The position numbers were made by a program, and so were the translations under genes. A model generated the notes under the pieces. That model made no database searches. It worked only from the letters and a program-made list of their open reading frames with translations, and had not been told where the DNA came from. DNA of 63,028 nt, counting the filler, from Collodictyon triciliatum (taxonomy: Eukaryota): NCBI GenBank assembly GCA_043381765.1. It is 55 parts of 55 records of this genome, joined end to end, with 100 filler letters (N's around TTAATTAATTAA, not from the genome) between each part and the next. Parts side by side here need not be neighbours in the genome. Positions count along the whole stretch, not along the records: positions 27,617 to 28,664 come from JBHJMP010012534.1; 54 more parts are not named here. One strand, written 5' to 3'. This document shows positions 27,770 to 27,830 of the stretch, piece after piece. The stretch's first letter is position 1. Each line of letters opens with the position of its first letter.

Positions 27770-27830
27770 AATTCGATGGTGATTATTTTTTTTTTCCTTT
27801 ATTCGATTCAAAGAATTCGATGGTGATTAT
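27770..27830 (-). mobile_element. 27-nt poly(A)-tailed micro-insertion (27787-27813) with perfect 17-bp TSD
   Basis: aattcgatggtgattat [T9-cctttattcgattcaaag] aattcgatggtgattat. The body is identical to 57913-57930. Confidence 0.85.

What the first reader, a model, noticed from the sequence alone, without database searches (positions are those of the whole stretch)
27770..27830. A ~27-nt micro-retroposon: identical 18-nt body plus poly(A) inserted at unrelated loci, each with its own long TSD
Seen: CTTTGAATCGAATAAAGG-A(8-9) on the minus strand occurs here between perfect 17-bp direct repeats and at 57887-57948 between perfect but different 18-bp repeats. It contains AATAAA, and both TSDs end in TAT beside the T-run (TTAT/AA and GTAT/AT). 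Known: a poly(A) tail, a ~15-20 bp TSD and a T-rich/A nick site are hallmarks of target-primed reverse transcription by L1-type ORF2, and such LINEs occur in this window. Inference: random 5' truncation should not give the same 5' end twice, so this may be a discrete tiny RNA being mobilised (far shorter than typical SINEs), or a LINE/SINE 3' end with a fixed RT stop. Two or three copies in ~58 kb of sequence suggest a high copy number.
Basis: partly seen in the sequence, partly recalled or inferred. Interest (0 to 1): 0.85.

Follow-up and report, generated by a model that had tools for sequence, protein, structure and literature searches.

The report
Recurrent 18-nt LINE tail insertions
Two tiny insertions in unrelated introns are copies of just the last 18 bases plus a short A-tail of a jumping gene (a LINE) from the same genome, and the same odd cut-off point recurs elsewhere, which hints at a preferred stop in the copying reaction.

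Summary
On the minus strand, CTTTGAATCGAATAAAGG plus A8-10 sits between perfect 17-bp repeats at 27770-27830. The same unit sits between perfect 18-bp repeats at 57887-57948.

The window is a chain of 55 unrelated ~1.05-kb contigs, so the two sites are independent loci. Both lie in host introns, in the same orientation as the gene.

The 18-mer is not an adapter. It is the exact 3' terminus of a LINE with a zf-RVT domain. A metagenome contig (L008), 94% identical to window contig 34501-35547, runs from ORF2 through the 3' UTR into this 18-mer and A10.

Public-run contigs support this. One matches site 1 perfectly across both repeats. At least two others follow the 18-mer with non-LINE sequence, so the 5' end probably recurs. 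An ordinary ~291-nt truncated copy also exists at 25009-25217.

Best reading: these are target-primed reverse-transcription insertions of the LINE tail with a preferred 5' end. That end could be an RT stop or a short template, and I could not tell which. I found no ribozyme, hairpin or structured 3' UTR to explain it. A genome-wide census was impossible because no assembly is held. I rate this a new variant of a known kind, of moderate interest.

The parts
27770..27786 (.). Site 1, left copy of the 17-bp target-site duplication (AATTCGATGGTGATTAT)
   Evidence: (family D20, 100% identity)
27787..27795 (-). Site 1, A-tail (9 A on the minus strand; 10 if the adjoining base of the TSD is counted)
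27796..27813 (-). Site 1, 18-nt body, identical to the last 18 nt of the LINE 3' UTR
27814..27830 (.). Site 1, right copy of the 17-bp TSD
27750..28105 (-). Host intron (356 nt, GT..AG on the minus strand) of an Arf-family, Sar1-like gene. It contains site 1, with the TSD 20 nt upstream of the acceptor.
   Evidence: an 830-nt contig of run X3 joins 27749 to 28106 and 28238 to 28585; the exons hit Pfam Arf at consecutive profile positions 81-105 and 107-146
57887..57904 (.). Site 2, left copy of the 18-bp TSD (AGTTGGGTATATCTGTAT)
   Evidence: (family D17)
57905..57912 (-). Site 2, A-tail (8 A; 9 with the adjoining TSD base)
57913..57930 (-). Site 2, 18-nt body
57931..57948 (.). Site 2, right copy of the 18-bp TSD. 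It lies 11 nt downstream of a putative GT donor at 57959-57958 on the minus strand.
   Evidence: The flanking reading frames hit Pfam GAF at consecutive profile positions 68-97 and 97-135, but weakly and below the cut-off. The intron is inferred and has no RNA evidence.
34501..35547 (-). Fragment of the source LINE family: ORF2 C-terminal part with zf-RVT. Both ends are cut by the contig ends.
   Evidence: PF13966, E 1.7e-06; 93.9% identity to L008 over 641 nt
25009..25217 (+). Ordinary 5'-truncated copy of the same LINE. Homology begins about 291 nt before the poly(A), and the contig ends before the 3' terminus.
   Evidence: (92.8% over 209 nt)
43182..43583 (+). Diverged second zf-RVT LINE fragment (72% DNA identity to L008 over 161 nt)

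Best explanation
[quoted passage not shown] The LINE endonuclease nicks a TAT/A site. The T-rich end pairs with the A-tract of the LINE RNA. The reverse transcriptase then copies only the last 18 nt of the 3' UTR. The second strand is cut 17-18 bp away, and repair leaves the TSD.

The identical 5' end is not random truncation. It is a recurrent, preferred end of the cDNA at this nucleotide: a strong stop or abortive release of the RT right after initiation on the LINE RNA.

Shown: the LINE origin, the TPRT hallmarks, the independence of the two loci, and recurrence of the same boundary in other contexts.

Inferred: that the RT, rather than a pre-shortened RNA, sets the boundary. The uniformly short tails (A8-10) are taken to mean that the RT is positioned by the 3' terminal sequence rather than starting anywhere in a long poly(A).
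For: (1) The 18-mer is the LINE's own terminus. On the minus strand of L008, ORF2 (zf-RVT) is followed by about 100 nt of 3' UTR ending ...CTCGCTACA, then the 18-mer, then A10. L008 is 93.9% identical over 641 nt to window contig 34501-35547.

(2) A second LINE-type context with a different 3' flank exists. Record 14 of run X3 continues after the 18-mer with AGCGAGGTTATGCC, as L008 does.

(3) The two window copies have different perfect TSDs of different length (17 and 18) and sit in different genes.

(4) In alignment A1 the three sequences share exactly the 18 nt plus the A-run. The base before the body is A in the LINE and T at both sites, so there is no junction microhomology.

(5) There are further contexts with the same boundary. 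Record 2 of X1 (129 nt) and record 15 of X3 (1389 nt) continue straight after ...CAAAG with sequence unlike the LINE 3' UTR and unlike either window site. A 31-nt contig of X1 with depth 60 stops exactly at the 5' end of the body, at 27813.

(6) Tails are short and similar: 8(9), 9(10), and 10 in L008.

(7) It is not an adapter. Of the 56 exact 18-mer matches fetched from prokaryote genomes, metagenomes and viral contigs, 1 has the T-run, and that one is the LINE. The 20 hits in 596 Gb of genome contigs are close to the roughly 17 that my own arithmetic gives for equal base frequencies.
Against: Only two copies are fully resolved with TSDs. For the extra contexts only flank letters on one side are visible and no TSDs, and 45 of the 66 laid pieces were not shown, so the spectrum of 5' ends is unknown.

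Other truncation points exist. There is a copy of about 291 nt at 25009-25217. Record 14 of X3 departs from L008 after 14 further LINE letters, which could be a ~35-nt copy or a subfamily.

Nothing explains a stop at this base. Rfam finds no ribozyme or tRNA-like element. The 3' UTR does not fold better than shuffles (z -0.53). The 18-mer plus tail has a minimum free energy of 0 kcal/mol.

Left-over ~1-kb contigs may be enriched for heterozygous insertions, so 2 copies in 55 kb says little about the genome-wide rate.
Confidence: 0.6

Rival explanations
1. A discrete short RNA is the template. The last 18 nt plus A-tail of the LINE transcript, or of a read-through transcript of an existing copy, is released by endonucleolytic cleavage. 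Alternatively it is left as the protein-protected stump of 5'-to-3' decay. The LINE RT then copies it to its end. This would be a true micro-retroposon in the first reader's sense.
For: The same facts that support a recurrent boundary apply here. The absence of junction microhomology at both sites fits run-off at an RNA 5' end. The boundary follows CA in the LINE...CTACA|C. That CA is a common cleavage dinucleotide is recalled, not tested.
Against: No ribozyme, tRNA-like or other processing signal was found next to the boundary. No RNA data show a 5' end there, and contigs cannot show RNA ends (header). A 27-nt polyadenylated RNA that stays bound to the RT is without precedent in what I read.
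Confidence: 0.2
2. This is ordinary extreme 5' truncation, and the shared end is coincidence or ascertainment. Only identical pairs catch a reader's eye.
For: Extreme truncation is known: simple poly(A) or poly(T) insertions with TSDs occur in human disease genes (passages of PMC3219598). A differently truncated copy is in the window.
Against: Two of the 2 TSD-flanked poly(A) insertions in the window end at the same base (scan of all A/T runs of 8-40). At least 2 further contexts in other samples break at the same base. With ends spread over even 40 positions, three further matches to the first would have a probability of about 1.6e-5 (my own arithmetic).
Confidence: 0.12
3. These are truncated copies of a SINE or other non-autonomous element that merely shares the LINE's 18-nt tail. 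On this view the boundary seen in other contexts is where the SINE and LINE sequences diverge.
For: Record 2 of X1 and record 15 of X3 continue with non-LINE sequence of unknown nature. SINEs with LINE-derived 3' ends are established (abstract of PMC3747384, seen in the listing).
Against: In the window the TSDs abut the 18-mer directly, so at least these two copies have no other body. The two non-LINE continuations differ from each other. No tRNA or Rfam family is found in the window.
Confidence: 0.05
4. This is a library adapter, primer or assembly artefact.
For: The contigs are small unplaced pieces, many of which end in homopolymers.
Against: The 18-mer is contiguous with a LINE 3' UTR in an unrelated metagenome contig. 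Its frequency in prokaryote assemblies is at chance level, and 0 of the 20 genome hits has the T-run. Fourteen-letter parts of it occur in 0 papers. Record 9 of X2 (151 nt) matches 27761-27911 with 0 differences.
Confidence: 0.02

Closest known systems
Extremely 5'-truncated L1 insertions and 'simple poly(A)/poly(T) insertions' with TSDs in human genes
   Same: Both are endonuclease-dependent TPRT products with an A-tail and TSD and almost no element body. The precedent is three simple poly(A) insertions among 48 disease-causing events, plus a poly(T) case in NF1 (passages of PMC3219598).
   Different: Those are single events with tails of 60-178 bp. Here the body is always the same 18 nt, the tails are 8-10 nt, and the same end recurs at independent loci.
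SINEs with a LINE-derived 3' tail (stringent LINE/SINE partnerships)
   Same: Both are short non-coding units that carry the partner LINE's 3' terminal sequence and are inserted by its RT (abstract of PMC3747384, seen only in the listings).
   Different: There is no pol III head, no body and no promoter, so the unit cannot be transcribed as such. At 27 nt it compares with about 100 bp for Platy-1, called the shortest primate SINE (abstract of PMC4864456, listing).
Minimal templates of human L1 ORF2p (stem-loop plus about 15 nt of single-stranded poly(A))
   Same: In both, a short element directly upstream of an A-tract is all that the RT engages at initiation. The C-terminal segment holds it and may set where TPRT starts (passages of PMC10830416). 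This LINE also has a C-terminal zinc-binding domain.
   Different: The 18-mer does not form a stable hairpin. Whether this RT binds it is untested, and membership of the L1 clade is not established.
Truncation hotspots in tailless retropseudogenes of tRNA and 5S rRNA
   Same: Both show non-random end points of retroposed copies at particular nucleotides of the template (figure legend in PMC5322556).
   Different: [quoted passage not shown] Here the 5' end of a LINE 3' UTR copy is fixed and no structure is evident.

Membership tests
TPRT (LINE-mediated) retroposed insertion | A-tail at the 3' end, abutting one TSD copy | tested here: met
TPRT (LINE-mediated) retroposed insertion | Flanking TSDs of variable length, about 7-20 bp | tested here: met
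   17/17 and 18/18 identical
TPRT (LINE-mediated) retroposed insertion | T-rich/A nick site at the tail side | tested here: inconclusive
   TTAT/AA and GTAT/AT are read. With n = 2 no consensus is possible.
TPRT (LINE-mediated) retroposed insertion | Body identical to the 3' end of a LINE of the same genome | tested here: met
   L008 3' terminus. L008 is 93.9% identical to window contig 34501-35547.
L1-clade LINE (as the source element) | C-terminal zinc-binding domain after the RT | tested here: met
   PF13966 zf-RVT in 3 fragments
L1-clade LINE (as the source element) | APE-type endonuclease and RVT_1 reverse transcriptase domains, and clade placement by RT phylogeny | not testable with these tools
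   No held fragment reaches these domains. Searches for longer proteins found none. A search of near-length proteins found 5 short relatives.
SINE | Pol III promoter head derived from tRNA, 7SL or 5S | tested here: not met
   The body is 18 nt and abuts the TSD. There are no tRNA or Rfam hits in the window.
SINE | 3' tail shared with a partner LINE | tested here: met
Adapter or assembly artefact | Present above chance, with its T-run, in unrelated assemblies; absent from independent reads | tested here: not met
   1 of 56 matches has the T-run, and that one is a LINE. A contig of X2 matches 27761-27911 perfectly.

The most novel reading that the evidence does not exclude
The last 18 nt of this LINE plus about 9 A form a discrete, currently active, multi-copy retroposon of about 27 nt. 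This would be the smallest retroposed unit described. It is made either because the RT releases a fixed-length product before it escapes its own 3'-end binding site, or because a cleaved or protected RNA stump is copied to its end. It would then mark the minimal cis-template or footprint of a LINE RT in vivo. It would also seed AATAAA-bearing A-tracts in sense orientation next to splice sites.
Probability: 0.25. Interest if true: 0.8.

Novelty: new variant of a known kind. Interest (0 to 1): 0.5.

Why it matters
If the 18-nt class is a real peak, it gives a natural read-out of the first steps of target-primed reverse transcription. It would show where the enzyme starts (tails of 8-10 A) and where it tends to let go (18 nt). 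It would do so in an organism outside the mammalian and insect models, and it could be tested by a simple census and an in vitro TPRT assay.

It also matters for annotation. Such 27-nt insertions fall below the detection limit of repeat maskers, yet each adds a polyadenylation hexamer and an A-tract. Here that is inside introns, 11 and 20 nt from splice sites and in the sense orientation.

If the census shows no peak, these are just two extreme truncations of an active LINE.

Tried and rejected
- **Whole-genome census:** no genome is held for this window.
- **Earlier notes of this scan:** three look-ups returned nothing.
- **Third copy at 11984-12001:** it has 3 mismatches, a T4 run only and no TSD. 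I treat it as chance.
- **Ribozyme, tRNA-like or known RNA family at the boundary:** Rfam on L008 at E up to 10 gave 4 irrelevant weak hits. Rfam on the window at gathering score gave 0. ARAGORN gave 0.
- **Structured 3' UTR as an RT block:** z -0.53, and 51 of 200 shuffles fold at least as well.
- **Hairpin in the 18-mer (CUUU...AAAG):** the minimum free energy is 0 kcal/mol, and all 200 shuffles fold at least as well.
- **Classifying the LINE:**
  - Pfam gives only zf-RVT.
  - The PDB sequence search gave nothing below E 0.2.
  - The Atlas gave only zf-RVT clusters of mixed eukaryotes.
  - The search for longer proteins gave none.
  - The near-length search gave 5 short metagenome proteins at 46-62% identity.
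- **Other TSD-flanked poly(A) insertions in the window:** none exist apart from simple repeats and a 192-nt tandem duplication.
- **Shared word 'caaattgatggcg' at about 27899 and 38787:** a 13-mer shared within 55 kb is expected by chance (my own arithmetic).
- **Run search and read laying:**
  - No run holds half or more of the contig's words; the best share is 0.25.
  - Parts of the contig without cover say nothing.
  - Record 17 of X4 ends with 4 unaligned letters just left of 27814. This could be an empty-site allele, but the letters are not shown, so it cannot be told.
  - Depth ratios (95 against 2.9 in X1; 885 against 106 in X3) suggest many copies, but the tool warns that they are not copy numbers.
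- **Literature:** five searches found no description of a recurrent LINE tail of about 18 nt. Fourteen-letter parts of the body occur in 0 papers. Supplementary files were not opened.

Full report
**What is there.**

The + strand carries two exact copies of CCTTTATTCGATTCAAAG, at 27796-27813 and 57913-57930. Each follows a T-run. Each is bracketed by a perfect direct repeat:
- Site 1: 17 bp, at 27770-27786 and 27814-27830.
- Site 2: 18 bp, at 57887-57904 and 57931-57948.

Read on the minus strand, each is TSD, then CTTTGAATCGAATAAAGG, then A8-10, then TSD.

With up to 3 mismatches the window has 3 matches against 0.17 expected, and 0 of 100 shuffles reached 3. The third match (11984-12001) has 3 mismatches, four T and no repeat, so I drop it.

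A scan of every A/T run of 8-40 nt for a downstream word of at least 10 nt repeated upstream found only these two, apart from simple repeats and one tandem duplication.

**Context.**

The window is not one locus. It is 55 contigs of 1042-1065 bp joined by N44-TTAATTAATTAA-N44 linkers. The two sites lie on contigs 27617-28664 and 57419-58460, which share nothing else.

Site 1 lies in an intron of an Arf-family, Sar1-like gene on the minus strand.
- An 830-nt contig of run X3 joins 27749 to 28106 and 28238 to 28585, with GT..AG on the minus strand.
- The exons hit Pfam Arf at consecutive profile positions.
- The spliced frame has no stop.
- The TSD lies 20 nt upstream of the acceptor.

Site 2 lies between two minus-strand reading frames that hit GAF at consecutive profile positions. 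Those hits are weak and below the cut-off. The site is 11 nt after a putative GT donor. This intron is inferred.

Both insertions are in the sense orientation of the host gene.

**Origin of the 18-mer.**

Exact-match scans gave these counts:

| Collection | Stretches with the 18-mer |
|---|---|
| Metagenome contigs | 35 |
| Prokaryote genome contigs | 20 |
| Viral contigs | 1 |

The genome figure is near the roughly 17 expected from 2 x 596 Gb / 4^18 (my own arithmetic).

Of the 56 matches, one (L008, 1157 nt) has a T-run, of 10 T, in front.

L008 is 93.9% identical over 641 nt to window contig 34501-35547 and 92.8% identical over 209 nt to 25009-25217. On its minus strand it encodes an ORF2 C-terminus with zf-RVT. 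The ORF is followed by about 100 nt of 3' UTR that ends ...CTCGCTACA, then CTTTGAATCGAATAAAGG, then A10.

In alignment A1 the LINE end and the two sites share exactly the 18 nt and the A-run. The preceding base is A in the LINE and T at both sites.

The micro-insertions are therefore the last 18 nt plus tail of a LINE family of this genome. An adapter or primer origin is excluded. Fourteen-letter parts of the body occur in no paper of the library.

**Independent reads.**

No run holds half or more of the words of contig 27617-28664. The best holders are freshwater metagenomes with shares of 0.21-0.25.

Laid on the contig:
- Record 9 of X2 (151 nt) matches 27761-27911 with no difference. It covers the left TSD, tail, body and right TSD.
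- It has only 26 letters left of the insertion: 9 unique plus the 17-nt TSD. This is under the tool's 31-letter rule for bridging. The site-specific left TSD is nevertheless there.

**Recurrence of the boundary.**

Many short contigs of X1 and X3 lie only on the T-run plus body (27780-27818) and run on into other sequence.

| Record | Length | What follows ...CAAAG |
|---|---|---|
| X1 record 2 | 129 nt | non-LINE letters |
| X3 record 15 | 1389 nt | non-LINE letters, different from record 2 and from both window sites |
| X3 record 14 | 801 nt | LINE 3' UTR letters for 14 nt, then sequence unlike L008 |

A 31-nt contig of X1 with depth 60 ends exactly at 27813. Single-copy pieces of the same run have a depth of about 2.9.

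Forty-five of the 66 laid pieces were not shown. No TSDs are visible for these contexts.

An ordinary truncated copy of about 291 nt is also in the window, at 25009-25217.

**Mechanism.**

The following point to TPRT by the LINE's own enzyme (established knowledge of L1-type LINEs):
- the A-tail;
- TSDs of unequal length;
- the TAT/A nick sites;
- a LINE-terminal body.

The shared 5' end at two resolved loci and at least two further contexts argues for a preferred end rather than random truncation.

I could not find its cause:
- No Rfam family lies at the boundary and no tRNA-like gene was found.
- The 3' UTR folds no better than shuffles.
- The 18-mer forms no stable hairpin.

Human L1 ORF2p holds about 15 nt of poly(A) and an adjacent stem through its C-terminal segment, which may set the start site (passages of PMC10830416). 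By analogy, the short uniform tails here (8-10 A) suggest positioning by the 3' terminal sequence, and the 18 nt may be what is copied before the enzyme lets go. This is inference.

The alternative is a pre-cut or protected RNA stump copied to its end. It fits the lack of junction microhomology and cannot be excluded.

**Comparison and novelty.**

Near-bodyless L1-mediated insertions are known: simple poly(A)/poly(T) insertions (passages of PMC3219598). Also known are SINEs with LINE tails (abstract of PMC3747384) and truncation hotspots in tailless retropseudogenes (figure legend of PMC5322556).

Five literature searches found no recurrent, fixed tail unit of about 27 nt. Supplements were not seen.

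It is not a SINE, because it has no pol III head. L1-clade membership of the source LINE is untested beyond zf-RVT.

I rate it a new variant of a known kind, with interest 0.5, pending a census that I could not run.

Noticed in passing
window 1-63028: The window is a chain of 55 unrelated contigs of 1042-1065 bp in roughly descending length, joined by N44-TTAATTAATTAA-N44 linkers. Many contigs begin or end in long homopolymers or simple repeats, such as A60 at 1189, T91 at 10176, A81 at 18533 and A82 at 51698.
   Followed up: partly
window 6942-7940 (+) and 44998-45762 (+): These are two long intron-less ORFs of 332 and 254 aa with no Pfam hit. The second starts with a ...HVDSANRSSG..SDF.F... 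stretch that reminds me, from memory only, of capsid/penton proteins of large DNA viruses or Polinton-like elements.
   Followed up: no
window 43904-44785 (+): An ORF with pentapeptide repeats (PF00805, E 8e-12) runs on at the contig end into what looks like the start of a WD40 repeat. This is an unusual domain pairing for a eukaryotic contig.
   Followed up: no
window 13899-14918 (+): A Sel1-repeat ORF (PF08238, E 1.6e-14) is built of near-identical units of about 80 aa.
   Followed up: no
window 23020-24068: A whole contig is made of a 54-nt tandem repeat (17 copies, 76-92% identity except one at 60%). It is open in several frames on both strands.
   Followed up: no
window 27814 (run X4, record 17): A 151-nt contig of a slightly different haplotype (2 substitutions, a 3-nt shorter A-run at 27910) stops aligning exactly at the start of the right TSD, with 4 unaligned letters. 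This may be an empty-site allele of site 1, but the letters are not shown.
   Followed up: partly
window 27770-27830 and 57887-57948: TSD plus tail adds up to 26 nt at both sites (17+9 and 18+8), so the two TSD copies start exactly 44 nt apart in both. With n = 2 this may be coincidence.
   Followed up: no
L008 3-218 (minus strand): One reading frame stays open from the LINE 3' UTR through the 18-mer and the A-run into the flank. The flank itself looks like coding sequence for a coiled-coil protein, so this LINE copy seems to sit in or next to a gene.
   Followed up: no
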